Assembly: GCA_964530615.1 (NCBI GenBank)
Contig: CAZHAR010000001.1
Span: 12,420-76,419, forward strand
Origin: an uncultured Planctomycetota bacterium
GTDB taxonomy: Bacteria > Planctomycetota > JBBTDB01
Direction of reading: 5' to 3'
Length of the DNA: 64,000 bases
A model generated the notes under the pieces. That model was not told the DNA's origin. It worked only from the letters and a program-made list of their open reading frames with translations, and ran no database searches. The position numbers and the translations under genes were made by a program. The stretch's first letter is position 1. Each line of letters starts with the position of its first letter. Shown here piece by piece: positions 19,268-55,945 of the stretch.

Positions 19268-20041
19268 TTAATTACAATCCACTAAAATTTCGTCTACCAT
19301 CCCATAACGATTTATAGGATTAAGGGCAATCATTTTATTCACAATTTGAAAAATTTTGGGGTTTCCCATACAAGCAACATGTTCTAGCGGAGGAATCGGT
19401 TGGTCGAGTTGAAATGGAATCGAACCTAAGGTCAGAATGCGGTAAAAGGAGCGTCCCAATCCAAAAATATCCCGTTTGAAGTGATCATATTCTGGTACTT
19501 CTAGGACTTCGGGCGCGACATAGCCAATCATTCCATGAAGAAATTCTTGATCCCATTCCAAGCGAGATTGAATTTCATAAATAGGTTGACAAAAACCAAA
19601 ATCAGTAATTCTGACTTCTCCATTTTCAAGGAGAATATTGAGTAGGTTGATATCGCGGTGGACATATCCTTGACGGTGGATATGACGTAAAGACTCTAAA
19701 CATTTTTTGAAGAGAGCGACGATTTGTTCTTCGAGGAAGCCTTTACTCTCCAAATAATCATCTAAAGATTTTCCGAATTTTTCCAGCACGAGAAAATAGT
19801 GTGTTTCGTTTCGTCCGCTATTAAAAATTTGGACGACATATTTAGATCGAAGCGCTAAAAGAGCCAACTTCTCAATGAGATAGAAGCGATAGATCTCTTC
19901 TTGTGTATAATCTTTTTTTGTTGCCGCAATACATTTTAGCGCATAGCCATCGGTTGTTTCGTAAACGGTACTAAAACCACCCTGACCGAGAAGCGATTTT
20001 ACTTGATATACTTTACCATTAACAACAAAAGACAGAGACAA
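19268..20041 (-). CDS. Compact eukaryotic-like Ser/Thr protein kinase (catalytic domain only)
   Basis: LGQGGFSTVY, HRDINLLNILL, DFGF, APE motifs all present. Confidence 0.75.
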   Translation of the reverse strand: MSLSFVVNGKVYQVKSLLGQGGFSTVYETTDGYALKCIAATKKDYTQEEIYRFYLIEKLALLALRSKYVVQIFNSGRNETHYFLVLEKFGKSLDDYLESKGFLEEQIVALFKKCLESLRHIHRQGYVHRDINLLNILLENGEVRITDFGFCQPIYEIQSRLEWDQEFLHGMIGYVAPEVLEVPEYDHFKRDIFGLGRSFYRILTLGSIPFQLDQPIPPLEHVACMGNPKIFQIVNKMIALNPINRYGMVDEILVDCN

Positions 20042-20391: not shown

Positions 20392-22122
20392 ATGGATTTG
20401 AGACTATTATTTCTACGTTTAGTTATCGGGGGACTCTGTTTTTCCTCGATGTTGGCACACGCACAAACTCAAGATTGGTTGACTGCTGAAAAGCAAACAA
20501 CTCCACAAATTCAGTCGAATCCGGCAATTTCGGAAAATATCGAAGAAATTCGTAATTTGATTTCCCTTGCTGTGAACGGCTCTTTTGAGGAAAGTTGGAA
20601 CGCTTCTATTCAATTGGCCGCGATGGGGGATATAGTAGTTCCCTATCTTCTTCCTTTTTTGGCGGATGAACGAGAAGATCTTCATCGTACTCAGGCGATT
20701 GTTGTCCTCAAAAAAGTGGGTTCTCAAGCAGTTTTGCCTCTTGTTCTTGCGTTAGATACAGACGATTATTTCCTCCAACAAAATATTTGTATTGTGTTAC
20801 GAGAGATTCGAGATACTCGTTCTCTTGGATATTTGCGTTGGCTCCTAGAAAATTCTAAAGGGTTTTCCGAGGTTCGTCCTTACGCAGAGCAAGCTATTAA
20901 GGCGATTGGTGGACCTGCGAATACTGCAAAACAAACCTTATACAATCAAGGAATGTGGTATTACACTCAAACCCCTAGCAATGATGCTTTAAATCCTCAT
21001 AACGTTTGGAGATTTGAAGCAGATAAAAAAAATGTGGCATTCGTTACGGTTCCAGAGTCTGCTTATTTTGCTTCACTCGCTGAAGAAACGTGTAATCAAG
21101 CTCTCAAAATCGATCCAACCGATCGAAGTGTTTGGGCGCTTTTAGTTTGCGCTTATTTTAAACAATACGCTGAAACTCGTAATCTTTCCGCTCGAGCAGA
21201 AGGTGCCGAACTTCCAGACGAAGTTAAAAAAGCCTATGCTAAAACTGAAAAACTTTTTGTAAAAAAGAAAGTTTTCGGAAACACAGCCGGAGTTGACGCT
21301 TTGATGGGTGGATTAACTTTGGCAATGGATAGTAATCATCCCGCAGTGGGTGTCGAAATTCTGGATGCTATAGGGGAAGTTTGCAACGAACAAGACCTCG
21401 CTTCAGGAAATCCTGTTTTCAAAGCGCTCACGTCTTCTCATCAAATGCTTCGTTACGCCTCGGCTCGAGCCTTGGTTCGTATCAACCCGACGAAAGCATT
21501 CCCGGGCGCTGAACGGGTGATCCCGAACTTAGCGGAAGCCTTCAATAACAAAGAGGTTTCACTACAAGCTTCTGAAACCTTGGCCTCTCTTGATCCCTCC
21601 CGTTCCATTTTCAATGCGGGTAGCGCCGTTGATGGTTTGATTTCGCTCTTGGCTTCTCCAACCAAAGAAATCAAAATCTCCACCATTCGTGCTTTAGGAC
21701 AAATTGGAAATGCGAAAGCATTAGGGTCTTTAGCTAAAATTCTCTCCTCTAAATCGGAAGAGAATAATACTCGCTCCGATGCCGCTTGGGCCATTGGAGA
21801 AATCTTTAAAATTTCTGGAAGCATTGAACCTCAAGCATACGAAGCGTTAATTCAAGGGGTCCGAAATTCTAATTCAGAAATTCGAAACCAATCCGGGTTA
21901 GCAATGGGAAAAGCCGCTAAACTGGATCCCACGAAACGATTCTCGCTCTTCATTGCTGAAAGAGAAGCTGGAAATACCGCTACTGAAGAACCTTCTAAAG
22001 AAGAAGAACCTTCTGAAGAATCTAAAGAAGAAGAACCTTCTAAAGAATCTAAAGAAGAAGAACCTTCTAAAGAAGAAGAACCTTCTGAAGAGGGCTCCTC
22101 CGAAGAGATGAAAGACGAATAA
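20392..22122 (+). CDS. Secreted HEAT-repeat (PBS-lyase type) protein with a C-terminal acidic EEPSK tandem repeat
   Basis: Signal peptide. Repeated ALGxIGxxxA HEAT_2-like units. C-terminal EEPSKEEEPSEESKEEEPSKESKEEEPSKEEEPSEE is encoded by DNA tandem repeats at about 21986-22092. Confidence 0.6.
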   Translation: MDLRLLFLRLVIGGLCFSSMLAHAQTQDWLTAEKQTTPQIQSNPAISENIEEIRNLISLAVNGSFEESWNASIQLAAMGDIVVPYLLPFLADEREDLHRTQAIVVLKKVGSQAVLPLVLALDTDDYFLQQNICIVLREIRDTRSLGYLRWLLENSKGFSEVRPYAEQAIKAIGGPANTAKQTLYNQGMWYYTQTPSNDALNPHNVWRFEADKKNVAFVTVPESAYFASLAEETCNQALKIDPTDRSVWALLVCAYFKQYAETRNLSARAEGAELPDEVKKAYAKTEKLFVKKKVFGNTAGVDALMGGLTLAMDSNHPAVGVEILDAIGEVCNEQDLASGNPVFKALTSSHQMLRYASARALVRINPTKAFPGAERVIPNLAEAFNNKEVSLQASETLASLDPSRSIFNAGSAVDGLISLLASPTKEIKISTIRALGQIGNAKALGSLAKILSSKSEENNTRSDAAWAIGEIFKISGSIEPQAYEALIQGVRNSNSEIRNQSGLAMGKAAKLDPTKRFSLFIAEREAGNTATEEPSKEEEPSEESKEEEPSKESKEEEPSKEEEPSEEGSSEEMKDE

Positions 22123-22146
22123 TAGGAAAATAATTAAAATAGAAAA

Positions 22147-22175
22147 AGCTGTCTAAAAAGACAGCTTTTTTTTTA
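22147..22175 (+). terminator. Rho-independent terminator
   Basis: agctgtct-aaaa-agacagct perfect 8-bp stem followed by a T9 run, 25 nt after the stop of the upstream gene. Confidence 0.8.
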
Positions 22176-22253: not shown

Positions 22254-22339
22254 GCCGAAGTGGCGGAATTGGTAGACGCGCTAGATTCAGAGTCTAGTTC
22301 CCGTTAAAGGGAGTAAGAGTTCGAGTCTCTTCCTCGGCA
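22254..22339 (+). tRNA. tRNA-Leu (anticodon CAG), class II with long variable arm; CCA not encoded
   Basis: GCCGAAGTGGCGGAATTGGTAGACGCG... 5' end. Anticodon loop TTCAGAG. Long extra arm. T-loop TTCGAGT. 3' ...CTCGGCA. Confidence 0.85.
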
Positions 22340-22345
22340 TTATTT

Positions 22346-23188
22346 ATGAAATTTTCTCTTGGATATAACACAAACGGACTTGCCCACCATACCCTTGAAC
22401 AGTGTATTGAGCTTTGCTCCAAATATGGGTATCAAGGAATCGCAATCACCTTAGATACACACCATCTCAATCCGTTGACTTCCTCCAAATCAGAAATCCT
22501 TTACATTCAAAAACTTTTACGTAGTCGATCCCTACGAGTCGTTATCGAAACTGGTGGACGATTTTTGTTGGATATCGAACGGAAACATTATCCCACTCTC
22601 CTTCATTTTCCTGGATTCGAAAAACGATTATTTTTTTTAGAGCGCGCCTTGGAAATAGCAGATTTGCTTTCTGCAGAAGCCCTTTCGTTTTGGTCAGGAA
22701 TTCTTCCTAAAGAAGTTTCTTCGGAAATGGCAACCGAGCGCCTTACCGATGTTTTTCAACAATTGTTGAAAAAAGCACATCAGTATCAAATTCCATTGGC
22801 TCTCGAACCTGAGCCCGGAATGTTTGTGGAAACCGTTGCTCAAGGATTATCGTGGACCCAAAAATTTCAAGATCCTCTTTTCGGACTGACGCTTGATTTA
22901 GGACATCTGGAATGTGTGGAACCTTATCCACTCGAACAACATATTATTCTCGCGGCTCCGTGGATTAAAAATGTTCATGTCGATGATATTCGGCATAAAC
23001 AACATGAACATCTTCCATTAGGAGAAGGAAGCATCGATTTTGTACCCCTTTTAAAAGCACTTGAGAAGATTTCGTATTCAGGTTTATTAGCGATTGAGCT
23101 TTCACGGAACTCTCATAATGGCCCGGAACAAATGCGTTGTTCCAAGGAATATTTAGAAACCCTCTTTCAACAACATTCTATCCATTAA
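22346..23188 (+). CDS. Sugar phosphate isomerase/epimerase (xylose isomerase-like TIM barrel)
   Basis: Xylose-isomerase-like TIM-barrel fold, with LALEPEPG and LGHLE-type metal-site residues. Starts 7 nt after the tRNA. Confidence 0.6.
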   Translation: MKFSLGYNTNGLAHHTLEQCIELCSKYGYQGIAITLDTHHLNPLTSSKSEILYIQKLLRSRSLRVVIETGGRFLLDIERKHYPTLLHFPGFEKRLFFLERALEIADLLSAEALSFWSGILPKEVSSEMATERLTDVFQQLLKKAHQYQIPLALEPEPGMFVETVAQGLSWTQKFQDPLFGLTLDLGHLECVEPYPLEQHIILAAPWIKNVHVDDIRHKQHEHLPLGEGSIDFVPLLKALEKISYSGLLAIELSRNSHNGPEQMRCSKEYLETLFQQHSIH

Positions 23189-23199
23189 GGTTTTGCTGA

Positions 23200-24054
23200 A
23201 TGTCGCTTTTGAAAAACGCTCTTTTTGGAACGCTCTCTATTCTGGCCGGTTGTTCAAGCCTACAAATGAAGCAAAATCTATTTTCTCCAGAAAATCAGTT
23301 ATTTGTGGACGGAAAATTTTCTTTGATTGAGGAAAAACAAACATTTGCGATTCAAGAATCTGGATGGGGAAAAATGTTTGAGCACCTTTTACAAGCCATT
23401 ACCTTTCCAATCGCGATGATTCAAAGCGGAAATTCGCTGGAAGCGAAATACGACGAAAGTCTCCTCAAAATGGCTCAATCTCAAAAAAAAGATCCAGAGA
23501 TTCCGGTAAAACAACTCTTAAAAAGTCCTGAAGGCGAGGTCCGTAGTTTAGGAATAGAGCTGACCTCTAAAGTGAATATTCTTTTAAAGTATTTACAAGA
23601 CCCAGATAGTTTTGTAAGAATACAAGCACTCGAAAAATTGAGGGAAACACGAGCGACTGAAGTCGTTATTGCTATCGAACAATTAGTTCGTGAAGATCCG
23701 GAAGAATTCGTTCAAATTGAAGGTATTCGAAGTTTAGGAGAACTTCATTTTCCAGAATCGCTTAATATCCTTGCAGGTTGTTTACGAAGCCCAAAAGATC
23801 ATATTCGCCGAGAAGCCGTCTGGGCGTTACGATTTTATTCTCCTAAACAATCCATCCCGCTTTTATTGACCATGTTTCAAGATCCGATTTTTTTTATTCG
23901 AGATCTCACAAAAAAAGTGCTGGAAGAAATCTTAAAAAAACATTATCCGTCCGATCCATGGCCCGAATATGAACCCTCAGCAATAAAGGATCAAAGAGAA
24001 CAACAACTTCTATTGTTTAAAAATTATTGGGAAGCTCAAAAAAATCGGGAGTAA
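23200..24054 (+). CDS. HEAT-repeat (PBS-lyase type) lipoprotein
   Basis: Lipobox LAGCSS. Repeated EVRSLGIEL..., RIQALEKL..., RREAVWALRF HEAT-like units. Confidence 0.55.
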   Translation: MSLLKNALFGTLSILAGCSSLQMKQNLFSPENQLFVDGKFSLIEEKQTFAIQESGWGKMFEHLLQAITFPIAMIQSGNSLEAKYDESLLKMAQSQKKDPEIPVKQLLKSPEGEVRSLGIELTSKVNILLKYLQDPDSFVRIQALEKLRETRATEVVIAIEQLVREDPEEFVQIEGIRSLGELHFPESLNILAGCLRSPKDHIRREAVWALRFYSPKQSIPLLLTMFQDPIFFIRDLTKKVLEEILKKHYPSDPWPEYEPSAIKDQREQQLLLFKNYWEAQKNRE

Positions 24055-24060
24055 GCGTTT

Positions 24061-24222
24061 ATGGGAAAATTTTTTCAATTGCTAGGATTATCTATTCTTC
24101 CACTCGCACTTTTTTATTTTGGACTTTATCATCACAATGTTCGGGCTGAATTATTAGGTTTATTGCTAGGCTCTATTTTTTTCTTGTTCGGCTGGAAATT
24201 TGAACAACATCGTTCCCGCTAA
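24061..24222 (+). CDS. Possible small membrane protein (53 aa, two hydrophobic helices)
   Basis: Manually found ORF not in the track (MGKFFQLLGLSILPLALFYFGLY...LLGLLLGSIFFLFGW). It sits between the HEAT lipoprotein and the GGDEF fusion gene. Confidence 0.3.
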   Translation: MGKFFQLLGLSILPLALFYFGLYHHNVRAELLGLLLGSIFFLFGWKFEQHRSR

Positions 24223-24237
24223 ACATAGGAGTCGTTT

Positions 24238-26961
24238 GTGGTTAAATGGTGGCAACAACTTATTCAAGAATTAACTGAAGAAGAATCCTTAATCTTTAAG
24301 GATGATTTAACGAATTTGTATAATCGCCGCTTCTATAAAATGCGTCTCAAACAAACCATTCAGAAAAATTGCACTCCAGAGAAACAGATCTCTTTCTTAA
24401 TGCTAGATTTGGATCATTTTAAATCGATCAATGATAACTATGGCCACCAAAGCGGAGATCAAGCCTTGATCCATGTCTCAGGTATTATGCGTCAAGTGGT
24501 TCAAGATCGTGGATTTGTGATTCGTTATGCCGGAGACGAATTTCTAATTATCTTACCCGAACAAGGAAGAGCGACCGCTCGCACTATTGCCGAAGAAATT
24601 GGTTATTCGGTTGCATCGACTCCGCTTGAAGTTCGGGCACAAAAAAAAATCGTCATTACCTTGAGCATCGGATGCGCTTCTGCGCCAGAAGATAGTCAAG
24701 CTCTAGAAAATCTTTTTGAGTTAGCCGACATCGCCCTTTATGTCTCTAAGGAAAATGGACGGAACCAAGTGAGTCTTGTCGGAGACAAAGCTCGCTCCAA
24801 AGAAGCTGTTGTTGGAAATTTTCCCTGCCCAGAATTTGTGGCGCGCGAAACCTTTTTTGAACATTTCCAAAAACAAACTCATCCTTTTTCAAAAAATTAC
24901 GCTTTTTTCTTTGGAGGGCCCGTCGGGATCGGGAAAACTCGTTTTCTTCAAGAATGTATCTCTCGCTTGAAAAAAGAATCTTTTTTTCGGTGCTTAGAGA
25001 GCAAATGTGAACTTCAAGAGCAAACGCCTTATGTCAGTTTAATGAATATTTTTGACCAAATTCTCTGGATGGAGATGAAAGAACGAGACACTTTACTCAT
25101 CGGATTAACCGAAGACGAAAAATTGGTCATTAGTCATTATTTTCCTAATTTACACTCTTCAAACCTCGCTCCGCCACGAGATTTGAAAAATTTATTACTG
25201 ACCAAAGATAGCTTCTTTCTCTCTGGAATTGAAAAGGTTTTACAAAATATCGCTCAGAAGAAAATTTTGGTTCTGATTTTTGATGATATTCATTGGATGG
25301 ATGAATATTCGTTGGGTTTGTTTTTTAAACTTCTTTATCAAGAAAAACTACCCTTTCTGTTCATCGGAGGCTATCAAACTCCTTTAAAATCGGACTCTTT
25401 GCTCACGACTCTTTTCTCGGACCCCCGAATTTCGCTTCTTCCGATTTTTGTCCAAGAGCTAGCGCCGTTAACAACCCCTGAAATCAAACGAATGATTCAA
25501 TCGATTCGCCCTAATTTTGATCCCGATCCTGAATTTTTAGAACTGTGTCAACAACATACACAAGGAGTTCCTCAAAAAATTGAGAGCGTTTTGCAAAACT
25601 TAATCGAAACTCAAAAATTATTTTGGGTCGAGGGAGAATGCCGAACCCAATTAATTACTCCGCTTGATTTCACGTCTATTCTGGAAAAAAACGAATCTCG
25701 TGAAAATACAGTGAAGTCTCTACCCCCTCAAAACCTCCCTCAAAGCGCTCCAACGACGCTCGATTTTAATTTTTCAGAAGAATCGATTAAAGATTCCCCC
25801 AAAATTCCCCTTCCTCCGCCAACCCTTGCAAAATCGTCAGAGGCCCCAATAAATTTGCCCGATACCGAAGTGTTTGAAGAGGCGCAGACTTTTCTTCTAG
25901 AGTCGTCGCTAGAGACAGACCAAATTTACGCTCAGATTCAAGAAATCGAGCATTCTGCACAACCCTTTGAAGAACTCGTGAAAGATAAAATCCGCCCCTT
26001 GCTAGAGAAACTCTTATTGTTTCCAGAACACACACACAGGCCCCAACTCATTCAAATCATCACCCAACGTTTAGATCATCCAGAAGAGGCCCAGAGAAAA
26101 AAGACTTTGTTTTTGCTCAAAATGCTTTCTGAATCCCAATCCAATTCCTGCCGACGACGATTTTGGTTTCTAGTCCAAAAAGAGTTTAATCATTTATTAC
26201 AAAATGAAACGCAACTCAGCGTCTTTACGATGGCTCTAATGTTGATTCCTAACCTTATTTTTGACTTTCTCTTTCAAGGAGAATATGGACGAGTTCTCTA
26301 TACCTTAGAGATTCTTAAAGAGCGAAAAAAAGAGCCCGTATTACAAGAAAAAATTCAAATAACCCTTGAAAAATTGGCGTCTTCTCATGCGCTAGAGTTA
26401 TTATTAATCGATCTACAAAATGGTCCACTTCCCCAGAAAACAGCAACGATCCAAATTTTGGGAATTTTAGGAGATGCAGTCATCGGAAATCTGACTAATA
26501 TTTTATTGCATTCCGATAATTTTCGTATTCGCCTTTCGAGTGTAGAGGCCCTTAAAGAAATTGGTCCTCACGCGATTCAACTTGTACTGCAACTGTTGAA
26601 TGAAAACACTTCCCCCCAAGTGTATTGTCGACTCCTTTCTCTGGATACGGCACTTCCAGAAGATCCAAGCTCAAACCGTTTAAAAAGAGCCCTTCTCCAT
26701 TCGTCCTCAGAGGTTCGACAAGAGGCTCTTATTCTTTTGTTAAGAAGAGAAGCGAACCAGATCGAAACGATCCTGAAAGAGGTTTTTCAATCCGGATCTT
26801 CCAAATCTTTATTGCTTTTATTAGAGGAGTTAAAAATTCATTCTTCGTCTCCATGGGCTTCGTTTCTATCCCAAATAATCACACAAAATTTTTCCGATGA
26901 AGTCACTCAAAAATGTGTTCGTCTCTTGGGAGAACAATCAGGAAGCTCTAATCTCTTATGA
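24238..26961 (+). CDS. Multidomain signalling protein: N-terminal GGDEF diguanylate-cyclase domain (AGDEF variant, no I-site), central P-loop STAND/AAA_16-type NTPase, C-terminal HEAT repeats
   Basis: GGDEF core: DLTNLYNRR, LDLDHFKSINDNYGH, RYAGDEF, SIGCA, ADIALYVSKENGRNQ. Walker A FFFGGPVGIGKT and Walker B LVLIFDDIHWMDE. HEAT-like C-terminus. GTG start. Confidence 0.75.
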   Translation: MVKWWQQLIQELTEEESLIFKDDLTNLYNRRFYKMRLKQTIQKNCTPEKQISFLMLDLDHFKSINDNYGHQSGDQALIHVSGIMRQVVQDRGFVIRYAGDEFLIILPEQGRATARTIAEEIGYSVASTPLEVRAQKKIVITLSIGCASAPEDSQALENLFELADIALYVSKENGRNQVSLVGDKARSKEAVVGNFPCPEFVARETFFEHFQKQTHPFSKNYAFFFGGPVGIGKTRFLQECISRLKKESFFRCLESKCELQEQTPYVSLMNIFDQILWMEMKERDTLLIGLTEDEKLVISHYFPNLHSSNLAPPRDLKNLLLTKDSFFLSGIEKVLQNIAQKKILVLIFDDIHWMDEYSLGLFFKLLYQEKLPFLFIGGYQTPLKSDSLLTTLFSDPRISLLPIFVQELAPLTTPEIKRMIQSIRPNFDPDPEFLELCQQHTQGVPQKIESVLQNLIETQKLFWVEGECRTQLITPLDFTSILEKNESRENTVKSLPPQNLPQSAPTTLDFNFSEESIKDSPKIPLPPPTLAKSSEAPINLPDTEVFEEAQTFLLESSLETDQIYAQIQEIEHSAQPFEELVKDKIRPLLEKLLLFPEHTHRPQLIQIITQRLDHPEEAQRKKTLFLLKMLSESQSNSCRRRFWFLVQKEFNHLLQNETQLSVFTMALMLIPNLIFDFLFQGEYGRVLYTLEILKERKKEPVLQEKIQITLEKLASSHALELLLIDLQNGPLPQKTATIQILGILGDAVIGNLTNILLHSDNFRIRLSSVEALKEIGPHAIQLVLQLLNENTSPQVYCRLLSLDTALPEDPSSNRLKRALLHSSSEVRQEALILLLRREANQIETILKEVFQSGSSKSLLLLLEELKIHSSSPWASFLSQIITQNFSDEVTQKCVRLLGEQSGSSNLL

Positions 26962-28256
26962 ACTTTAGATTCGTTCTTTATATCCCCTTTTGCCTGATTC
27001 TATTAACCTGCGCATCGTCTCCGACTTCCGACGAAAACGTCCCTTCGTTAAAAAAAGAAGAATCTCCTAAAAAAGGGTTCAACTGGATTATTCTCGAATT
27101 TACAGAAGATGAATGGAGTACCGTACAATCGATTCTTCCGTTTTATACGTTTGAAGAAGATAAAAAAGAACAGAGTGAAGATTTTACTCTGTGGCCACTG
27201 ATTTCAGGATATAAGCGTCAAAAAGACCGGCTCTATTGGTTTTCGTTTCCTTTGTTAACGCAACATTTATCCATCGAAGATCCTCAACGATCAATTCAGC
27301 ACTTTATTTCGATACCCTTAATTACTCGTTATGAAACCTATTATGTTCGCGACGACTTTTCCTTTCAACGTTTTGATTCGCTTCCGCTCCTCACGTCTAT
27401 TTTTAGCCAAATACGCCCCGCAAAAAAAGAGAAATTTTTTACGCTTGGAACTCCATTTTTTCAGACGTGGACCCTAGAACAAAAAAACCCGCTAACCCGT
27501 TTGAAAAGTTGGTCTATCGGCCCTTCTTTCTTATCCGATACTCACGATTTCGCTGTGCTAAAACGTCAACAATGGGAGGAAGAAACCGATCTCTCGATTG
27601 CAGAAATTTTTAACATTTCGTTGTTTCGTCATGAACGCTATCAGAGCCGTTTTCCCGGTTCTCGATACGCTTTTTCTCCGTCCCAATATATGAGCCTAAG
27701 CTCTGAAGAAAGTCTTTTGCGTTTTTCAGAACCTGAAACTTCTTGGAAGACGAAAACGAGTTTCTTAAACCCGTTCTTTTCTCTTAAATTTGAAGCCAGT
27801 GAATTCCGACAAGCCGAACTCCTACCGCTTTTTTCTTATCAACAAGACTCTGAGCACTGGAGTTTTAGTTTGACCCCGCTTTTCCTTTCGCTAGACTCTT
27901 CAAAAATCGTTGACTTCACCCCCCGAAAAAGTATGGAGTCCTTTTTTCCGCTCGTCTGGTTTGAGCCTGAACGAAACCAATGGAATGGACTCGCTTCGTT
28001 CTTTTTTTATCGAAAAGATCGGACACGAGAAGAAACACAAATACGCCTCCGTGGAATTTTTGAGTTCGATCAAAATACGCGTCAAACTAATTTCAATCTT
28101 GGCGAAGGAACCCTTTTTAGCTACCACTCTGATTTAAATTATGAACGTTGGAGCTTCCTCACTGGATTCTTATTTGGTCGATCGACAGAGCCAGATGGGA
28201 AATATATCGAATTTTTGTTTTTCAAAATAAAAACGGAAGATTTCTCTGGAAAATAG
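26958..28256 (+). CDS. Lipoprotein, hypothetical; translationally coupled (ATGA overlap) to the GGDEF-NTPase-HEAT gene
   Basis: Signal peptide plus lipobox (LLTCAS). 4-nt overlap with the upstream stop codon. Confidence 0.5.
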   Translation: MNFRFVLYIPFCLILLTCASSPTSDENVPSLKKEESPKKGFNWIILEFTEDEWSTVQSILPFYTFEEDKKEQSEDFTLWPLISGYKRQKDRLYWFSFPLLTQHLSIEDPQRSIQHFISIPLITRYETYYVRDDFSFQRFDSLPLLTSIFSQIRPAKKEKFFTLGTPFFQTWTLEQKNPLTRLKSWSIGPSFLSDTHDFAVLKRQQWEEETDLSIAEIFNISLFRHERYQSRFPGSRYAFSPSQYMSLSSEESLLRFSEPETSWKTKTSFLNPFFSLKFEASEFRQAELLPLFSYQQDSEHWSFSLTPLFLSLDSSKIVDFTPRKSMESFFPLVWFEPERNQWNGLASFFFYRKDRTREETQIRLRGIFEFDQNTRQTNFNLGEGTLFSYHSDLNYERWSFLTGFLFGRSTEPDGKYIEFLFFKIKTEDFSGK

Positions 28257-28293
28257 CAGAACATCCCCCTTCGGAGGGGGTTAGGGGGAGGAT

Positions 28294-29748
28294 ATGAAAG
28301 TTAGAATTCGATATAAAATTGTCCTTCCCTTTCTTTGCTTATTTATATTAGTGTTTTTATTTGGGTATTGGCACTTGGCAAAAACCTTATCCAAACAGAT
28401 CGAGGAGCAAATCGGAACACAGATGCGGGAAATTGTGTACAGCATCGGACATACCAACTATCTAAGAAACCAAAAAATTGTTGAAAAAGTCAAAGCTCTT
28501 ATTCATGCCGATCTCATTCTCGGGGAACAATTCAATCGTATTTTGAGTAGCACTCTTTCTGTAGAAGAAACAAATCAAGTTTTGTTGTGGATTCGTGAAA
28601 AAAATATCTTTGCTGTGACTCCAGAGATCGACCCCAAATCTTGGCCCGAAAGCAGTCTTATCTTTCGAGAGTTTCGCCTCCCGTCAGGTCTTTATAGCAT
28701 TTTTGCGACCTTCCTCCCAGAAAAGAGAAATCCGCCGTGTTGGATGCTCCTGTTTTTTTCCGAAGAACGCTTTCTCGCTCCTCAGCAAAAAATTTCTAGA
28801 ACCCTTCAATATGCTCTCTATCCTGCTTTAATCCTTATTATCGGAATCGGTTTCCTCATTTCCCTAACCATTACTCGACCCCTCGAAGGACTCTCCAGCG
28901 AAGCCAAACAAATCGCTCATGGAGATTGGGAAAAAAATCTGACAGTTCAAACTTCAGATGAAGTGGGTGAACTCGCTCAATCCTTTAATCTAATGCTACA
29001 AGAGTTGCGTCATACCCAAAGCGAACTCCTTCAAGCAGAAAAATTGGCGACCTTGGGAAAAATCACTGCACGTGTGGCCCACGAAATTCGCAACCCGCTG
29101 ACCTCCATAAGAATGATTTTACAAAACGCTAAACGACGTATTGAACAACAGCAGTTCCCCTCTTCTGAATCTTTTTCGCTGGTGATGGACGAAATCGATC
29201 GTCTTGAATGGATCATTCAGGAACTCTTAAGTTTTGGCCCTAATCCGCCAGAATTGAAACAAGCCTGGATTCCGCTTTATCCTTTATTAGACGGAATGTT
29301 GTCCATCGCTTTAACACGATTCACTCATTTGAAAATTAAACTTCAAAAAGAGTACGATCCCCGCATTACAACGGTTTACGGCGATGGAGATAAAATAAAA
29401 CAAGTTTTCTTAAATTTGCTCTTGAATGCGACTCAGGCGATGCCCAATGGCGGAGAATTAAAGGTGAAAACACAGTTGCAGTTCTCAGGAAGCATAGAAA
29501 TTACGGTTTGCGACACCGGAATGGGCGTTTCTCCTGAGGCCGAAGCTCATCTTTTTAAATCCTTTTTTACGACCCGATCCAACGGAACTGGCTTAGGATT
29601 ATCTACCAGTCGAGAAATTGTGAAGCAACATCAGGGCGAAATGGGATACCGCCGAAAAAATCCGGGTTCCGAATTCTGGTTCACCCTTCCCCACGGAAAT
29701 GATGAAATCTTTTTTCAGAATGCAGAAAAAAAACTGCATCCTCCGTAG
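28294..29748 (+). CDS. Sensor histidine kinase (two TM helices, periplasmic sensor, HAMP, HisKA, HATPase_c)
   Basis: H-box ARVAHEIRNPLTSI. G-box GTGLGLSTSREIV. HAMP region after TM2. Preceded by a CCCCCT-TCGG-AGGGGG hairpin (28265-28280) and a GGAGGA RBS. Confidence 0.8.
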   Translation: MKVRIRYKIVLPFLCLFILVFLFGYWHLAKTLSKQIEEQIGTQMREIVYSIGHTNYLRNQKIVEKVKALIHADLILGEQFNRILSSTLSVEETNQVLLWIREKNIFAVTPEIDPKSWPESSLIFREFRLPSGLYSIFATFLPEKRNPPCWMLLFFSEERFLAPQQKISRTLQYALYPALILIIGIGFLISLTITRPLEGLSSEAKQIAHGDWEKNLTVQTSDEVGELAQSFNLMLQELRHTQSELLQAEKLATLGKITARVAHEIRNPLTSIRMILQNAKRRIEQQQFPSSESFSLVMDEIDRLEWIIQELLSFGPNPPELKQAWIPLYPLLDGMLSIALTRFTHLKIKLQKEYDPRITTVYGDGDKIKQVFLNLLLNATQAMPNGGELKVKTQLQFSGSIEITVCDTGMGVSPEAEAHLFKSFFTTRSNGTGLGLSTSREIVKQHQGEMGYRRKNPGSEFWFTLPHGNDEIFFQNAEKKLHPP

Positions 29749-29929: not shown

Positions 29930-31015
29930 TTGGAGCTTTCTATGAATTTTCCAACAATATTCATTCTCCTTGTTACCCTTTTCTTCAGCGGTTGTCAATC
30001 CAGCCGTCCTTTTGTAGTGACCAACGCGACTCAACTTGGAGATCTTTATTACCACGGAGAACTAACCGATTCTGAGGGGCATCGCTGGAACGTGATGATC
30101 CTGCCCGGAATTCGTCCTATGGCTCGCTGGAGTGCCGAATCTTTTGAAGAGTGCGGCGATTCACTCTCTTCTTATGGGAAAAAAAGCTTTTGGAACGATT
30201 GTGGAAAATTAGCGGAAGACTCCTTAGAATTTTCTAAAGATTCTCTTGTGGAATATGGCTGGGAAGGAATCGGAGACGACTTCGAGAATGCCACAAAAAA
30301 TATTTCTGACAACGCTTCTCAAGCTCCATTTGGCTGGATTCCCCGAATTATTGGAAATGTGTTTTGGGGCTATGTGCTAAAACCGGCTTTTCGGATCACC
30401 ACCGCGCCGGTCGGTGCGGCGATGGGAGCTTGTGGAACCCTTATTCTACCAGCAGGATATGCATTGGCTCCAATAGGATATACGATTGGAAACTCGACTC
30501 TGAATGGAATTCTCATTCCGACATTAGGAATAACGGCTCATCAACTGGTTTATCTCATGGTTCTTCCAAACCGCGAACCCTCGGAATCAATGGATGGTTC
30601 TTTTGGTTTGTATATTATTAACCCAGAATCAAAGACAGTCGAAAAAACTCCAGAAATGACGCTCTCTCCAGAGGATTTGAAAAAACTGTTTCTCCTCTTT
30701 TTACAGTTGAAAAAGGCTCAAGCGGAATATGAATGGAGGTCTCAAGAATACTATAAAGCCAGCGATCAACAAACGCAGTTAGACGCTGACGTCAACGCGT
30801 GGCACAGTGGCGAAACTTTAAAGCTTTCGCCAGAAACGCAACAGTATTTGAATCGTCAATTTAAAAAGGACTTTGAAGCCCAATGGAACAAAATGCAACA
30901 ATCCAACTCTGAAAACATCGCTCCCTATTGGAAAAACCTAGACGGGAGCTTTCAAGAATTTCAAGAATTGCTGAATGCAAAAGTCCCTTCAATTATTATT
31001 TCACCACAAAATTGA
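29930..31015 (+). CDS. Lipoprotein, hypothetical (central hydrophobic region, C-terminal coiled coil)
   Basis: Lipobox FFSGCQS. Its 3' end overlaps the convergent leuS 3' end by 20 nt. Confidence 0.45.
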
Positions 31016-33662
31016 CCAGTTTATTGGGAACGAACACTATTTTTTGAATCGTCTTGCCTTCCAGCGCTTTCTGGATTTTATCGAGGCCCATAATCTGACT
31101 TTCCAGTTCGGCTTGTGGCATATCTTTCGGAAATTCAAAAGCGCCACGGAGTTTTCCGTTGACCTGAACTGCAATATTGACCTTCGTTTCGATCAGATAC
31201 TTCGGATCCGCTTGTGGCCACGATTCATACGTCAGCGTTGTGGTATGCCCTAAAGCTTCCCATAATTCTTCACACAGATGTGGAGCATACGGAGCCAGCA
31301 ATATCACAAACGGTTCCAGTACCGATTTGGGTTTTTCTTTGCTGGCGGTCAGGGTATTAACAAATTCCATCATTCGACTGATCGCCGTATTAAAACGCAT
31401 ATTTTCTGTATCAAATGTCACGGCTTCAATCGTTTTATGCAAAATGCGTAATTCTGCTTCAGTGGCTTCTGCCGTGGGCGAAACCTTGTAGTTTCCATCG
31501 CTATCAAAAAACAGTCTCCACACCCGATTCAGAAACTTGGAGACGCCTTCCACTCCTTTCATAGACCACGGTTTTACAATTTCTAACGGGCCCATAAACA
31601 TTTCAAACAGCCTCAGTGAGTCTGACCCATACGCTTCGATCACATCATCCGGATTGATGACATTTCCGCGACTCTTGGACATTTTTTCCATAATCTCATC
31701 CAGCGGATATTCCAGATATTCTGGATGGTGAGGCTTGTCTTGAATAAACTGAACCTCTTTAGAAGAGAAGACTTTTTCTTCCAGCAGTTCGTTTTTTTCT
31801 TTACTGTAATAGTCGGTATCGCCATTTGCGTTCGTTTTTTCCACAACTTCTTTATACCGATAGACGGGTTTGGATTGCCCTTTCGGAATAAAGCCTCGGT
31901 AGGTATATCCCAAGATCAGTCCTTGATTCACCAGTTTTTGAAAGGGTTCTTTCGTATGAACATAGCCCAGATCATACAAAACCTTGTGCCAAAAACGTGC
32001 GTACAACAGATGCAGAACCGCGTGTTCAGCGCCTCCTACATACAGATCTACGGGCATCCAGTATTTTTCAGCTTCTGAGGACCACGCAGATTCACTATTT
32101 TGAGGATCAATATAGCGCAGATAGTACCAACAAGAACCCGCCCATTGAGGCATCGTGTTCGTTTCTCGCTTTGCTTTCATCCCTGTTTCTGGATCAATGG
32201 TTTCGACCCAAAAACGAACATTGGCCAGCGGAGATTCTCCGGTTTCTGAGGGTTGGTATTTCTCAACTTCCGGGAGTGTCAGTGGCAATTCTGATTCTTT
32301 CAAGGGTTTGGGACCTTTTTCGGTATGCAGGATCGGGAAGGGTTCTCCCCAATACCGTTGGCGACTGAAAACCCAATCTCTCAGCTTATAATTGATTTTC
32401 CGAGAGCCTATTTTGTTTTTTTCCAGATGCTCAATCATTTTATTTTTGGCGGTCGCGCTGTTCATCCCATTCATAAAGTCGGAATTCACTGAAACGCCAT
32501 CACCTGTAAAAGCTTCTTTATTCAGATCTCCACCCGAAACGACTTCCACAATTTCCAGATTGAATTTTTTGGCAAATTCATAATCACGAGTATCGTGTCC
32601 CGGGACGGACATAATAGCTCCGGTTCCATAGCTCATCAGTACATAATCCGCAATCCAAATCGGAATCTGTTTTTGGTTTACGGGATTGATCACACTCGCG
32701 CCAGTAAAGACGCCCGTTTTTTCTTTAGCCAAATCCGTACGATCCAGATCGCTTTTGCTCGCTACTTTCTTTTGATAGTCTTCCACCGCCGATTTTTGAG
32801 CAGGGGTCGTTATCTTGGGAACCAGCGGATGCTCAGGAGACAGAACCATAAAGGTCGCTCCAAACAGCGTATCCGGGCGGGAAGTAAAAATCATTACAAA
32901 ATGTTTATCAGGAGAATCGACTTGAAAACGAACTTCGGCCCCTTCAGAGCGTCCGATCCAATTTCTTTGCTGTTCCTTAATCGCTTCGGGCCAATCCAGT
33001 GTTTCCAAATCGTCCAGCAATCGATCCGCGTAGGCCGTGATTTTCAGCATCCATTGCCGCAGATTTTTTCGGCTGACTTTGTGATTACAACGATCACAGC
33101 GTCCTTCCTTGACTTCTTCGTTCGCCAGTCCGGTTTTGCAGGAATGGCACCAGTTAATGGGCATCTCGGATTCATAGGCCAACCCTTTTTCATACAATTT
33201 CAAAAAAATCCATTGGGTCCATTTATAATAGGAGGGATCGGTCGTATTGACTTCGCGATCCCAATCATAAGAGAACCCCAGTCTTTTGATCTGTCGTTTA
33301 AAATTCTGGATATTTTTGGCGGTCGTCGTTGCCGGGTGAGTTCCCGTTTTCAGCGCGTAGTTTTCCGCAGGTAATCCAAATGCGTCCCAACCCATAGGAT
33401 GAAGAACATTAAAGCGGTTCATCCGTTTAAAGCGACAATAAATATCTGTCGCGGTGTATCCTTCTGGATGTCCGATGTGCAACCCTTCTCCGGAGGGATA
33501 AGGAAACATATCCAGACAATAAAATTTCTTTTTTTGAGGGTCGATTTCAACTTTAAACGTTTTGTGAATCTCCCAATAGTCTTGCCATTTTTTTTCGATA
33601 CTGGCAAAATCATAGTTCCCGCGGATTTTCGGCGACATAAACATTCCTCTGGCAAAATTCAA
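30996..33662 (-). CDS. leuS: Leucyl-tRNA synthetase
   Basis: HIGH motif (LHIGHPEGY), KMSKS motif (KMSKSRGN), CP1 editing and zinc-cluster regions. The true start may be the internal Met 9 (33638). Confidence 0.92.
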
Positions 33663-39082: not shown

Positions 39083-39883
39083 ATGAGCTATTGGGGGAGT
39101 GCTGTGACCTTTTTTTTGTTTATTGAAGCCATTGGAATATTTCTGATGGTTGTTTGTAGCTTTTTAGTGATGCTTTCTTTGACCGTCTATTTTGCTTTTT
39201 TTCCTGAAGAACGCAATCGACTACAAAAGCGAATTCTCCTTATTTATCGGGGCACTCACGATCGATTTCTTTCTGGAATCACGAAAAGAAATCTGGAAGA
39301 AGAAGAGTTGAACAAAAAAATTGTTCATTGGGTGGATCGTGGAAATTGTTTAGAACTTCATTTGTTGATCAAGAAGCACTCCAGTGCGCATAAAAAAATT
39401 ATGTCGCGATTAGAGTCGAAACAAGATTATCTGTTAGGGGTCCAATTAGCCGATAAACTTCAAGATCCGCAATTAAAACAGGATTTTTATCGAAAAATTT
39501 ACGCGAAAGCGCTCGCCGCTAAAGATTATTTTCTCGCGATTGATTTCGCTAAAAAAATTCCCGATTATAAAGCGGCTTATGAATTGATGAAAACACAAAT
39601 TAAAGAGGTTTCTCACTTTATGGAACTCGGAGAAATGGCGGAAAAAGCCGAAGCGTTTGAAGAAGCCATTGCTTATTATCAAAAAGAAAACGCGCTTTAT
39701 GAAATCGCTCGTTTGCTGATCCGTCAACATCAAATAGATCGTCTGTTTGATTATTGCAAAGACGTCGGCCATAAAAAAGTAGCGGTGATGGTCCTGGCTC
39801 CCTTAAAAGAAGCCGGACTCGCCGAAGAAGCCGAACATCTCAAGCAAAAATTGATAGCCTATGAGGCCACTACCTCGCATTGA
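39083..39883 (+). CDS. Hypothetical membrane-anchored alpha-helical protein
   Basis: N-terminal TM helices and a helical, TPR-like C-terminus. No catalytic motifs. Confidence 0.4.
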   Translation: MSYWGSAVTFFLFIEAIGIFLMVVCSFLVMLSLTVYFAFFPEERNRLQKRILLIYRGTHDRFLSGITKRNLEEEELNKKIVHWVDRGNCLELHLLIKKHSSAHKKIMSRLESKQDYLLGVQLADKLQDPQLKQDFYRKIYAKALAAKDYFLAIDFAKKIPDYKAAYELMKTQIKEVSHFMELGEMAEKAEAFEEAIAYYQKENALYEIARLLIRQHQIDRLFDYCKDVGHKKVAVMVLAPLKEAGLAEEAEHLKQKLIAYEATTSH

Positions 39884-41144: not shown

Positions 41145-41197
41145 GGAAAAAACCTTTCCTGATCGGGTTATTTGTAGGGGCACGGCGTGCCTGCCTT

Positions 41198-42742: not shown

Positions 42743-43009
42743 AATCTCCTTATCAAAAGAATTTATGCGGAAGAGGAGCAAATGGTTTTTATATTACGCA
42801 AATCTAAAAAAAATGTGGTGTTCTTTATGGGTGATTTTTTTTAAATTGGCTATTTGTCTTCTATTAAAATTATTGATAAGATGAAGTTTCGCAGAGGTCG
42901 TTTTAAATCGACGCTCCCCCCATCTAAAAATATATTCTAATCCCTGTCTCTAGGAACCTTTAACCTCGCCTCTTGGTATTATTAAACTTCTTTGCCTTAA
43001 AGGATATGT

Positions 43010-55480: not shown

Positions 55481-55486
55481 TTTTTT

Positions 55487-55945
55487 ATGAACAAACAAGC
55501 CGATAAAATTACTGAAAATACCATTGAATTGGCTTTTTCGAGCAATCCTAAATTTATGAAATTGCTTCGGCAAAGTATCGAATTTGCTTGTCTCGATATG
55601 GGAATAACCGACTTCAAACCCATTATTTTTGCGATTGATGAAGCTTGTACCAATATTATTCGTCATGCCTATAAAATGGATTTTAGTCAAAAAATTGCAG
55701 TGCTTATTCAATGGATCCCTAAAGAAAAAATCGATTTTTTTCTCTGTGATTTCGCAGAAAAAGTGGATTTAAATCAAATCAAACCTCGTGATTTGAACGA
55801 AATCCGTCCCGGACAAATGGGGGTCAGCATCTATCATGAAGTGATGGATGAAGTGGAATGGATTCAAAGTAGTGAGGTTGGAAACACTCTTCATTTTGTT
55901 AAATATTTTCAAAGTCCAAAACAGAAAAAGGATAATGCTTCATGA
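55487..55945 (+). CDS. Anti-sigma regulatory factor / serine-protein kinase (RsbW/SpoIIAB-like GHKL ATPase)
   Basis: IFAIDEACTNIIRHAY N-box-like motif in a 152-aa protein. 6 nt after the phosphatase gene. Confidence 0.7.
   Translation: MNKQADKITENTIELAFSSNPKFMKLLRQSIEFACLDMGITDFKPIIFAIDEACTNIIRHAYKMDFSQKIAVLIQWIPKEKIDFFLCDFAEKVDLNQIKPRDLNEIRPGQMGVSIYHEVMDEVEWIQSSEVGNTLHFVKYFQSPKQKKDNAS

What the first reader, a model, noticed from the sequence alone, without database searches (positions are those of the whole stretch)
23200..29748. GGDEF-STAND NTPase-HEAT fusion translationally coupled to a lipoprotein, within a HEAT-lipoprotein / histidine-kinase signalling island
The 907-aa protein combines a complete GGDEF nucleotide-cyclase domain (active-site variant AGDEF, no RxxD I-site) with a P-loop STAND/AAA_16-type NTPase (Walker A GPVGIGKT, Walker B LIFDD) and a HEAT-repeat C-terminus. 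Its stop overlaps the start of a lipoprotein gene (ATGA). It is flanked upstream by a HEAT lipoprotein and a possible 53-aa membrane peptide, and downstream by a HAMP histidine kinase with a structured 5' hairpin. The cyclase+AAA_16+repeat layout parallels the mycobacterial class III cyclase-AAA-TPR-LuxR proteins but with a GGDEF cyclase. This makes it a candidate for a previously undescribed c-di-GMP (or other cyclic di-nucleotide) signalling/scaffolding module located next to a tRNA-Leu gene.
Basis: partly seen in the sequence, partly recalled or inferred. Interest (0 to 1): 0.7.

Follow-up and report, generated by a model that had tools for sequence, protein, structure and literature searches.

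The report
STAND-switch diguanylate cyclase in lipoprotein operon
This is a real gene for an enzyme that probably makes the bacterial signal molecule c-di-GMP under control of an NLR-like ATP switch; it belongs to a widespread but never-studied family found in uncultured bacteria, so it is moderately interesting and not unprecedented.

Summary
Window 24238-26961 encodes a 907-aa protein with a GGDEF domain (Pfam E 3e-44), an AAA_16 P-loop NTPase (E 1e-11, above Pfam's cut-off), a disordered linker and an all-helical HEAT-like C-terminus (AlphaFold mean pLDDT 85.5). Its stop codon overlaps the start of a lipoprotein gene (ATGA).

The architecture is not rare. About 105 of the 120 best database hits are GGDEF-AAA_16-HEAT or GGDEF-AAA_16-TPR proteins from uncultured lineages, labelled only "diguanylate cyclase". 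I found no paper on them.

Nearly all of the NTPase-bearing hits share an RYAGDEF active site, including all 76 aligned family members, and every other catalytic residue is conserved. An AGDEF cyclase (VCA0965) is known to be active.

The window protein belongs to a rare short (~900 aa) subfamily seen in only three other metagenome lineages. In these, a six-gene operon is conserved as far as each contig reaches: TIM-barrel enzyme, HEAT lipoprotein, 2-TM peptide, cyclase, beta-rich lipoprotein, HAMP histidine kinase.

Most likely mechanism (inferred): a signal acts on the HEAT arm, the NTPase oligomerises, the GGDEF domains pair, and c-di-GMP is made.

I found no evidence for a defence role, for a product other than c-di-GMP, or for any importance of the nearby tRNA. 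Verdict: a new variant of a known kind; interest 0.42.

The parts
22346..23188 (+). First gene of the conserved operon: a cytoplasmic xylose-isomerase-like TIM-barrel enzyme (sugar-phosphate isomerase/epimerase type). It starts 6 nt after tRNA-Leu.
   Evidence: Pfam AP_endonuc_2 E 8.7e-32. 67% identical orthologue in the same position in L001.
23200..24054 (+). Exported HEAT-repeat lipoprotein, 284 aa, lipobox LAGC with Cys18.
   Evidence: Pfam HEAT_2 E 4e-16 and HEAT E 3e-11. Lipobox seen. 59% identical orthologue in L001.
24061..24222 (+). 53-aa small membrane protein with two hydrophobic helices.
   Evidence: Kyte-Doolittle segments at residues 4-22 and 27-45. 62% identical ORF at L001 1886-2044 and a weak match upstream of the cyclase gene in L002.
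24238..26961 (+). 907-aa GGDEF / STAND-type NTPase / HEAT protein, the core of the finding.
   Evidence: The exact sequence is present in a public 171-kb contig.
24298..24768 (+). GGDEF (diguanylate cyclase) domain, residues 21-177. The RYAGDEF active site is residues 96-102 (AGDEF = nt 24529-24543). No RxxD I-site.
24835..25716 (+). Nucleotide-binding oligomerisation module, residues 200-493: a P-loop domain (Walker A GPVGIGKT, nt 24916-24939; Walker B ending at DD349-350, nt 25267-25287), a helical domain carrying the conserved G443-x-P445, and a beta-hairpin plus helix (winged-helix-like).
25717..25911 (+). Predicted disordered, Pro/Ser/Glu-rich linker, residues 494-558.
   Evidence: pLDDT below 50 for residues 491-558. 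Only 22-35% identity to the subfamily members.
25912..26946 (+). C-terminal all-alpha HEAT/ARM-like solenoid, residues 559-903: the presumed sensor or partner-binding arm.
   Evidence: About 20 consecutive helices with pLDDT mostly above 85. HEAT_2 scores 23.0 bits, below the cut-off. NblB-like match E 2.8e-6. This is the least conserved folded domain, 28-37% identity.
26958..28256 (+). 432-aa exported beta-rich lipoprotein (Cys18). Its start overlaps the cyclase stop (ATGA).
   Evidence: Identical to MEK7485626.1, annotated 'hypothetical protein'. The overlap with the cyclase gene is conserved in L001, L002 and L005. Only 10 full-length relatives exist among 1.84 billion representatives.
28294..29748 (+). 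Membrane sensor histidine kinase: TM1, a periplasmic domain of about 150 aa, TM2, HAMP, HisKA, HATPase_c.
   Evidence: Pfam. TM segments at residues 5-23 and 175-193. Orthologues directly after the lipoprotein gene in L001 (51% identity) and L005 (44%).

Best explanation
The 907-aa protein is a cytoplasmic diguanylate cyclase whose activity is gated by an NLR-like (STAND / AAA_16) nucleotide switch.

Shown:
- The N-terminal GGDEF domain has every residue needed for GTP binding, metal binding and catalysis. The first Gly of GGDEF is Ala, a change fixed throughout this protein family.
- There is no inhibitory I-site.
- The domain is followed by a P-loop NTPase plus helical plus winged-helix-like module, a disordered linker, and a fast-evolving HEAT solenoid.

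Inferred, by analogy with MalT, Apaf-1 and NLR proteins:
- In the resting ADP-bound state the HEAT arm keeps the protein monomeric.
- Binding of a ligand or partner protein to the HEAT arm allows ATP binding and oligomerisation of the NTPase module.
- Oligomerisation brings two GGDEF half-sites together. This is the obligatory step for condensing two GTP into c-di-GMP.
- Without an I-site, output is limited by the switch and not by product feedback.

Operon context: in this lineage the gene sits in a tight operon with two exported lipoproteins (one HEAT, one beta-rich), a 2-TM peptide and a HAMP histidine kinase (gaps of -4 to 37 nt). I therefore propose, with lower confidence (about 0.35), that the cyclase is one output arm of an envelope-sensing module. 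The lipoproteins would act on the kinase's periplasmic domain.
For: Domains and motifs.

Family-wide purifying selection on the catalytic and Walker residues: RYAGDEF is invariant in 76 of 76 aligned members. G230, G232 and D349 are invariant and K233 is present in 75 of 76.

AGDEF is compatible with activity: VCA0965 synthesises c-di-GMP (PMC3974145).

The identity gradient is the pattern expected of effector-switch-sensor proteins: GGDEF 72-73%, NTPase module 47-53%, HEAT 28-37%.

A c-di-GMP role for the family: three long members lie inside type IV pilus/T2SS-like clusters containing several MshEN (c-di-GMP receptor) domain genes, other GGDEF genes and HD-GYP genes.

Operon conservation: the full order TIM - HEAT lipoprotein - peptide - cyclase - lipoprotein - kinase is kept in L001 at 50-67% protein identity. 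Cyclase, lipoprotein and kinase are kept in L005, and the cyclase-lipoprotein overlap in L002.

Pairing of the two exported proteins: P0132 carries a lipoprotein-like domain and HEAT repeats in one exported chain.
Against: - No biochemical data exist for any family member.
- The first Gly of GGDEF is replaced, and some AGDEF domains elsewhere are treated as degenerate (NbdA, one search list).
- The inter-domain arrangement is uncertain (pTM 0.51).
- No solved STAND protein matches the NTPase by sequence beyond the Walker A region.
- I did not find the sensor-I-type Arg typical of AAA_16 proteins after strand 4 (sequence inspection only), so ATP hydrolysis may be atypical.
- The lipoproteins are exported and cannot touch the cytoplasmic cyclase directly. 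The link to them rests only on synteny in four closely related lineages.
- The sigma54 response regulator that follows the kinase in L001 is not adjacent here.
Confidence: 0.62

Rival explanations
1. The AGDEF domain is catalytically dead. The protein would then be a GTP- or c-di-GMP-binding scaffold or receptor: a STAND platform that recruits partners through its HEAT arm without making a second messenger.
For: The canonical GG(D/E)EF motif is not met: A98 replaces G. AGDEF domains such as that of NbdA are described as degenerate (one search list).
Against: All metal, base and phosphate ligands (D57, D59, N65, D74, R96, D100, E101, K171) are invariant in 76 of 76 members. That would be unexpected for a relic domain. 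An AGDEF enzyme is proven active (PMC3974145). There is no RxxD I-site, the usual c-di-GMP-binding site of receptor-type GGDEF domains. GGDEF is the most conserved domain of the protein (72-73% identity).
Confidence: 0.13
2. It is an anti-phage NLR-like (Avs/bNACHT-type) defence protein. On sensing a phage protein through its repeat arm, its GGDEF effector would make a nucleotide alarm signal.
For: The effector-NTPase-repeat layout is that of bacterial NLR-related defence proteins. There is a weak Cas10 palm-domain similarity (PADLOC E 8.5e-4) and a weak Avs2 Walker-region match (E 0.004).
Against: No PADLOC Avs, NLR or other defence model matches the NTPase or any operon protein. No nuclease, TIR or pore effector, and no mobile-element gene, lies nearby. 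Composition is flat. Synteny with housekeeping-style signalling genes is stable across 50-67% protein divergence. Long family members sit in pilus/secretion operons with c-di-GMP receptors.
Confidence: 0.04
3. The cyclase is a genuine STAND-gated enzyme, but its placement with the lipoproteins and the kinase is operon hitch-hiking in one narrow lineage, with no functional connection.
For: The lipoprotein linkage is seen in only about four related lineages. More distant lipoprotein relatives (P0126, P0132, P0124) are not next to such a cyclase. Long family members have unrelated neighbours.
Against: The overlapping stop/start is kept in all four loci, and six-gene order is kept despite only about 50% identity of the cyclase. 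Intergenic gaps are 6-37 nt with no terminator inside the operon.
Confidence: 0.3

Closest known systems
Canonical GGDEF diguanylate cyclases (PleD, WspR, DgcZ) and the AGDEF enzyme VCA0965 of Vibrio cholerae
   Different: Activation in the known enzymes comes from receiver, GAF, PAS, zinc or membrane domains placed N-terminal to GGDEF. Here GGDEF is at the extreme N-terminus and is followed by a STAND-type NTPase and a HEAT arm. There is no I-site, unlike PleD and WspR.
Mycobacterial class III cyclase / AAA_16 / TPR / LuxR proteins (Rv0386, Rv1358, Rv2488c)
   Same: An N-terminal nucleotide cyclase of the palm-domain superfamily that must dimerise, followed by an AAA_16 P-loop module and helical repeats (architecture recalled from my own knowledge; the cyclase+LuxR composition is mentioned in PMC3466318). 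The Walker B signature 'DDxHWxDE' is typical of AAA_16.
   Different: The cyclase here is GGDEF (two GTP to c-di-GMP), not a class III cyclase domain. The repeats are HEAT, not TPR. There is no LuxR helix-turn-helix, so the output is purely a second messenger.
STAND/NLR switches (MalT, Apaf-1, plant ZAR1, bacterial Avs/bNACHT)
   Different: No sequence-level membership in NACHT, NB-ARC or Avs models. The effector is a second-messenger synthase, not a DNA-binding, death or nuclease domain. Oligomerisation is untested.
Uncharacterised long (~1400 aa) GGDEF-AAA_16-HEAT_2 proteins of Desulfobacterota, Omnitrophota, Planctomycetota and Eremiobacterota MAGs
   Same: Same family: 21-25% identity over the whole MAFFT alignment and 27-32% in the best local alignment covering the N-terminal half, an invariant RYAGDEF, and the same domain order.
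   Different: The window protein lacks about 500 residues between the winged-helix-like element and the terminal HEAT repeats. It lacks the RxxD I-site that some long members keep. It has a different gene context (lipoproteins plus kinase, not pilus/MshEN clusters).

Membership tests
GGDEF domain family (Pfam PF00990 / TIGR00254) | Significant match to the family HMM above the curated cut-off | tested here: met
   151 bits against 23.8. 153.6 bits against 37.4.
Active diguanylate cyclase | GG(D/E)EF active-site motif | tested here: not met
   The motif is AGDEF (A98), invariant in 76 of 76 family members. AGDEF is nevertheless active in VCA0965 (PMC3974145), so this lowers the inference of activity but does not exclude it.
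Active diguanylate cyclase | Metal-binding Asp residues, guanine-recognising Asn/Asp, and phosphate-binding Arg/Lys all present | tested here: met
   D57, D59, N65, D74, R96, D100, E101 and K171 are present and invariant in the family; R175 is present (R in 65 of 76, K in 11).
Active diguanylate cyclase | c-di-GMP synthesis from GTP in vitro | not testable with these tools
   Needs purified protein.
Product-inhibited DGCs (PleD/WspR type) | RxxD I-site five residues upstream of the GGDEF motif | tested here: not met
   QDRG aligns with RSSD of WspR. Some long family members do carry RxxD.
Hypr GGDEF (cGAMP-producing) | Ser in place of the guanine-specifying Asp (PleD D344 position) | tested here: not met
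   D74 is invariant in 76 of 76. The identity of the Hypr signature residue is from my own knowledge.
AAA_16 / STAND P-loop NTPases | Match to Pfam AAA_16 above the cut-off, with intact Walker A and Walker B | tested here: met
   46 bits against 32.6. GPVGIGKT and LIFDD are present. G230, G232 and D349 are invariant and K233 is in 75 of 76.
AAA_16 / STAND P-loop NTPases | P-loop domain followed by a helical domain with a GxP motif and a winged-helix domain | tested here: inconclusive
AAA_16 / STAND P-loop NTPases | Nucleotide-dependent oligomerisation | not testable with these tools
   Needs biochemistry or cryo-EM.
HEAT repeat proteins (Pfam HEAT_2) | HMM match above the cut-off, or an alpha-alpha solenoid fold | tested here: inconclusive
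   HEAT_2 scores 23.0 bits, below the 27.7 cut-off. The model is a confident 20-helix solenoid over residues 559-901. Long relatives score well above the cut-off.
Mycobacterial Rv0386-type cyclase regulators | Class III cyclase domain and a C-terminal LuxR helix-turn-helix | tested here: not met
   No Guanylate_cyc or GerE/LuxR hit in Pfam or NCBIfam.
Bacterial NLR-like defence proteins (Avs, bNACHT) | Match to a defence-system NTPase model, and a defence-island context | tested here: not met
   PADLOC gives only a weak Cas10 palm match and a generic HEAT match. The neighbours are signalling and housekeeping genes.
Bacterial lipoproteins (the 432-aa partner) | Signal peptide ending in a lipobox Cys | tested here: met
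   The N-terminus MNFRFVLYIPFCLILLTC has a Cys invariant in four homologues. Thr at position -1 is atypical. Lipid modification itself is untested.
LA_1737 family (NCBIfam NF047486) | Score above the curated cut-off | tested here: not met
   23.8 bits against 60. Remote repeat-level similarity only, also seen in relatives.

The most novel reading that the evidence does not exclude
The whole AGDEF clade would be a previously unrecognised class of NLR-like second-messenger synthases. A STAND oligomerisation switch, and not a classical sensory domain, would license GGDEF pairing. The fixed Gly-to-Ala change would tune the active site so that catalysis occurs only inside the oligomer. In this groundwater lineage the switch would be wired, through its HEAT arm and a 2-TM peptide, to an envelope lipoprotein / histidine-kinase sensor.
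Probability: 0.3. Interest if true: 0.6.

Novelty: new variant of a known kind. Interest (0 to 1): 0.42.

Why it matters
Diguanylate cyclases are normally switched on by small sensory or receiver domains. Control of c-di-GMP synthesis by an ATP-driven, NLR-like oligomerisation switch has not been described experimentally, as far as the searched literature shows. Yet this family is common in uncultured Desulfobacterota, Omnitrophota, Planctomycetota and related lineages.

If the mechanism holds, it extends the 'induced proximity' logic of NLR, Apaf-1 and MalT proteins to bacterial second-messenger synthesis. It also gives a testable reason for the clade-wide AGDEF motif.

The link of long family members to pilus clusters rich in MshEN receptors offers a concrete physiological read-out. 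The specific locus in this window adds a compact (907 aa) version suited to biochemistry, and a candidate envelope-sensing partner set.

Tried and rejected
1. Two genome-contig scans. The first, with subfamily-specific patterns, found nothing. The second was swamped by generic GGDEF proteins, because the tool chose the pattern D[LVI]DxFKx[IV]ND. Neither gave family loci or an organism placement.
2. A metagenome-contig scan with the subfamily alignment returned only generic GGDEF domains.
3. Structure prediction of the 432-aa lipoprotein failed (mean pLDDT 33 with four sequences), so no fold search was possible. Its fold stays unknown beyond 'beta-rich with repeated xPL motifs'.
4. Foldseek against the PDB with the full model returned only GGDEF hits. 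The afdb50 library was unavailable.
5. A profile search of the NTPase region against PDB sequences matched only Walker A neighbourhoods of Clp, Cdc6 and Avs2.
6. An Rfam scan of the window found only the tRNA and no c-di-GMP riboswitch.
7. The hairpin upstream of the kinase gene was rejected as a regulatory element: z -1.2 and not conserved.
8. The defence-system reading was rejected after the PADLOC scan.
9. The tRNA-linked island idea was rejected: flat composition, no integrase, and no tRNA in the 89 nt available upstream of the operon in L001.
10. Literature searches for GGDEF with AAA_16, STAND, NB-ARC or NACHT found no description of this architecture.
11. The third homologous-protein search was left unused, because no remaining question justified its cost.

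Full report
**1. What is in the sequence**

The stretch 22346-29748 on the + strand holds six tightly packed genes. They follow directly after tRNA-Leu(CAG) at 22254-22339. Gaps between successive genes are 11, 6, 15, -4 and 37 nt, and the first gene starts 6 nt after the tRNA.

The six genes are:
- A xylose-isomerase-like TIM-barrel enzyme (Pfam AP_endonuc_2, E 9e-32).
- A 284-aa HEAT-repeat lipoprotein with the canonical lipobox LAGC.
- A 53-aa peptide with two hydrophobic helices.
- The 907-aa protein of the finding.
- A 432-aa protein with a signal peptide and a conserved Cys18.
- A two-TM HAMP-HisKA-HATPase_c histidine kinase.

The cyclase stop and the lipoprotein start overlap as ATGA. 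A strong bidirectional terminator lies upstream at 22143-22170, and none lies within the operon.

Base composition is flat across the region. The flanks are ordinary chromosomal genes (LeuRS, PriA, arginine decarboxylase) plus many signalling proteins. This is an operon in a normal chromosome, not a mobile island.

**2. The 907-aa protein**

Family models:
- Pfam and NCBIfam give a full-length GGDEF domain at residues 21-177 (E 3e-44 and 4e-45).
- AAA_16 covers residues 200-369 at 46 bits, above the 32.6-bit cut-off.
- HEAT_2 matches residues 736-793 below its cut-off.

AlphaFold model, built from a 76-sequence family alignment (mean pLDDT 85.5):
- A GGDEF fold.
- A five-stranded P-loop domain.
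- A helical bundle (residues 413-457).
- A beta-hairpin plus helix (461-493).
- A disordered Pro/Ser/Glu-rich linker (491-558).
- A solenoid of about 20 helices (559-901).

- This is the neighbourhood expected of a STAND-type module.

By sequence alone, no solved protein matches beyond the Walker A region.

**3. Catalytic competence**

The alignment with WspR and the family alignment agree on the following:
- The metal-binding Asp residues (D57, D59, D100, E101) are present and invariant in the family.
- So are the guanine-recognising N65 and D74, and R96 and K171. R175 is also present (R in 65 of 76, K in 11).
- The only departure from the canonical motif is A98, giving RYAGDEF.
- The inhibitory RxxD site is missing: QDRG aligns with RSSD of WspR.

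The base-specifying Asp is retained. A product other than c-di-GMP, such as the cGAMP made by Hypr GGDEFs (which carry Ser at that position, from my own knowledge), is therefore unlikely. An AGDEF enzyme, VCA0965 of Vibrio cholerae, has been shown to make c-di-GMP (PMC3974145).

**4. A large, unstudied family with a fixed AGDEF**

A search of 5.8 billion protein clusters shows the architecture is common in uncultured bacteria.
- About 105 of the 120 best hits carry GGDEF followed by AAA_16.
- Most are about 1400 aa with C-terminal HEAT_2 repeats. Some carry TPR repeats instead.
- Where named, they come from MAGs of Desulfobacteraceae, Planctomycetota, Omnitrophota, Eremiobacterota and Aminicenantes.
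- They are annotated only as 'diguanylate cyclase'.

A motif scan of these 120 proteins gave a clear split:
- Nearly all NTPase-bearing members have AGDEF.
- The nine hits without a P-loop have GGEEF or GGDEF.
- Only six TPR/NB-ARC variants have GGDEF.

The Gly-to-Ala change is thus a conserved hallmark of the clade, not decay in one gene. I found no paper describing a GGDEF plus AAA_16/STAND protein. That search covers open-access full text and bioRxiv only.

**5. The short subfamily and its operon**

The window protein belongs to a rare ~900-aa subfamily. It lacks about 500 residues between the winged-helix-like element and the terminal HEAT repeats.

Only two full-length relatives were found, P0001 (50% identity) and P0002 (46%), plus a C-terminal fragment in L005. 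Neither the GTDB species genomes nor the JGI metagenomes gave further members.

Synteny in the related loci:
- L001 keeps the whole order TIM barrel, HEAT lipoprotein, small peptide, cyclase, lipoprotein, kinase, at 50-67% protein identity. A sigma54-type response regulator follows.
- L005 keeps cyclase, lipoprotein and kinase.
- L002 keeps cyclase and lipoprotein.
- The cyclase stop overlaps the lipoprotein start in all of them.

Identity to P0001 and P0002 falls along the protein: GGDEF 72-73%, NTPase module 47-53%, linker 22-35%, HEAT 28-37%. This fits a conserved effector, a conserved switch and a diverging sensor.

**6. The lipoprotein**

It is identical to GenBank MEK7485626.1, 'hypothetical protein [Planctomycetota bacterium]'.
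- It has no Pfam family.
- Its match to the Leptospira LA_1737 C-terminal model is below the cut-off.
- An exhaustive profile search of 1.84 billion representatives found only 50 relatives. Ten are full length, and all ten have signal peptides.
- Structure prediction failed (pLDDT 33).

One relative, P0132, is an exported fusion of this domain with HEAT_2 repeats. Those repeats are most similar to the 284-aa HEAT lipoprotein of the window. This suggests the two exported proteins of the operon act together in the periplasm.

More distant relatives are not next to a cyclase.

**7. Context of the long family members**

Three of the five loci examined (L004; L089, from Candidatus Gygaella, Omnitrophota; L091) place the gene inside a type IV pilus/T2SS-like cluster. 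These clusters contain:
- Several MshEN-domain genes. MshEN is a known c-di-GMP-binding domain (mentioned in PMC10333796).
- T2SSE ATPases, T2SSF, PilO and a secretin.
- Further GGDEF or HD-GYP genes.

The other two loci show no such context. This is independent circumstantial support that the family supplies c-di-GMP.

**8. Mechanism**

Shown: a complete cyclase active site, an intact P-loop switch module, a helical repeat arm, conservation patterns and the operon structure.

Inferred, from established knowledge of STAND proteins (MalT, Apaf-1, NLRs) and from the fact that GGDEF domains work only as dimers:
- A signal or partner binds the HEAT arm and relieves autoinhibition.
- ATP binding then drives oligomerisation.
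- Juxtaposed GGDEF domains condense two GTP into c-di-GMP.
- Without an I-site there is no product feedback.

The lipoproteins and the kinase's periplasmic domain are outside the cytoplasm. Any coupling to the cyclase must therefore pass through the kinase or the 2-TM peptide. That step is speculative.

**9. Rivals**

- A dead-enzyme scaffold is disfavoured by the invariant catalytic residues and by GGDEF being the most conserved domain.
- A defence role is disfavoured by the PADLOC result and by the gene context.
- Operon hitch-hiking without functional coupling remains possible.

**10. Provenance**

Contig names (Hain_H51_02um) suggest groundwater samples from the Hainich aquifer observatory; that reading of the names is from my own knowledge.

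In the GenBank MAG the gene is broken across two contigs, annotated 'hypothetical protein, partial' and 'diguanylate cyclase, partial'. The fusion is therefore invisible in that record.

**11. Verdict**

This is a member of a widespread but uncharacterised STAND-coupled diguanylate cyclase family, in a rare compact form with a lineage-specific lipoprotein/kinase operon. It is a new variant of a known kind. Interest is 0.42.

Noticed in passing
Family-wide (proteins P0001-P0120); window nt 24529-24543: AGDEF in place of GGDEF is fixed in essentially every GGDEF protein that carries the AAA_16 module (about 105 of the 120 best hits). Neighbouring hits without the NTPase have GGEEF or GGDEF. It is a clade-defining active-site substitution under purifying selection.
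   Followed up: partly
L004 2718-20128; L089 2687-20164; L091 907-11463: Long (~1400 aa) GGDEF-AAA_16-HEAT genes are embedded in type IV pilus/T2SS-like operons. These hold two T2SSE ATPases with MshEN domains, stand-alone MshEN proteins, T2SSF, PilO, a secretin, and extra GGDEF or HD-GYP genes. This suggests a dedicated c-di-GMP source for a pilus machine in Omnitrophota-like bacteria.
   Followed up: partly
L088 2767-6159 (protein P0132): An exported 1130-aa protein fuses a domain related to the window's 432-aa lipoprotein with HEAT_2 repeats. This hints that the beta-rich lipoprotein and the HEAT lipoprotein of the operon work as a pair.
   Followed up: partly
window 24238-26961: In the GenBank MAG (locus tags AABZ60_) this gene is split over two contigs: MEK7485627.1 'hypothetical protein, partial' and MEK7485810.1 'diguanylate cyclase, partial'. 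The full architecture is seen only in a separate 171-kb assembly.
   Followed up: yes
window 20392-22122 (+) and 22143-22170: A 576-aa secreted HEAT-repeat protein with an acidic low-complexity tail of EEPSKE-type repeats. It is followed by a 12-bp-stem bidirectional terminator, just upstream of the tRNA-Leu and the operon.
   Followed up: no
window 22339-22346: The TIM-barrel gene's ATG lies only 6 nt after the 3' end of tRNA-Leu(CAG), so the tRNA and the operon are probably co-transcribed. No tRNA is found in the 89 nt held upstream of the orthologous gene in L001.
   Followed up: partly
window 28264-28290: A CCCCCT/AGGGGG hairpin sits just before the kinase gene. Its C-run can alternatively pair with the GGGGGAGG Shine-Dalgarno sequence. 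It is not conserved in L001 or L005 and is not significantly stable (z -1.2).
   Followed up: yes
window 29930-31015 (+) and 30996-33662 (-): A 361-aa predicted lipoprotein (lipobox FSGC) with no family match. Its 3' end overlaps the 3' end of the convergent leucyl-tRNA synthetase gene by 20 nt. The sigma54 response regulator that follows the kinase in L001 is absent here.
   Followed up: no
window 14097-16337 (-), 19268-20041 (-), 48639-52010 (+), 47163-48368 (-), 54098-55945 (+): The window is unusually rich in eukaryote-like signalling genes: Pkinase fused to an FGE-sulfatase domain, a 257-aa bare kinase, a 1123-aa Pkinase-WD40 propeller protein, REC-SpoIIE and GAF-SpoIIE phosphatases, and an anti-sigma-type kinase.
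   Followed up: no
window 39870-42781 (-): An adjacent DUF1501/DUF1800 gene pair, which from my own knowledge is typical of Planctomycetota-like genomes. This is consistent with the NCBI label of the MAG.
   Followed up: no
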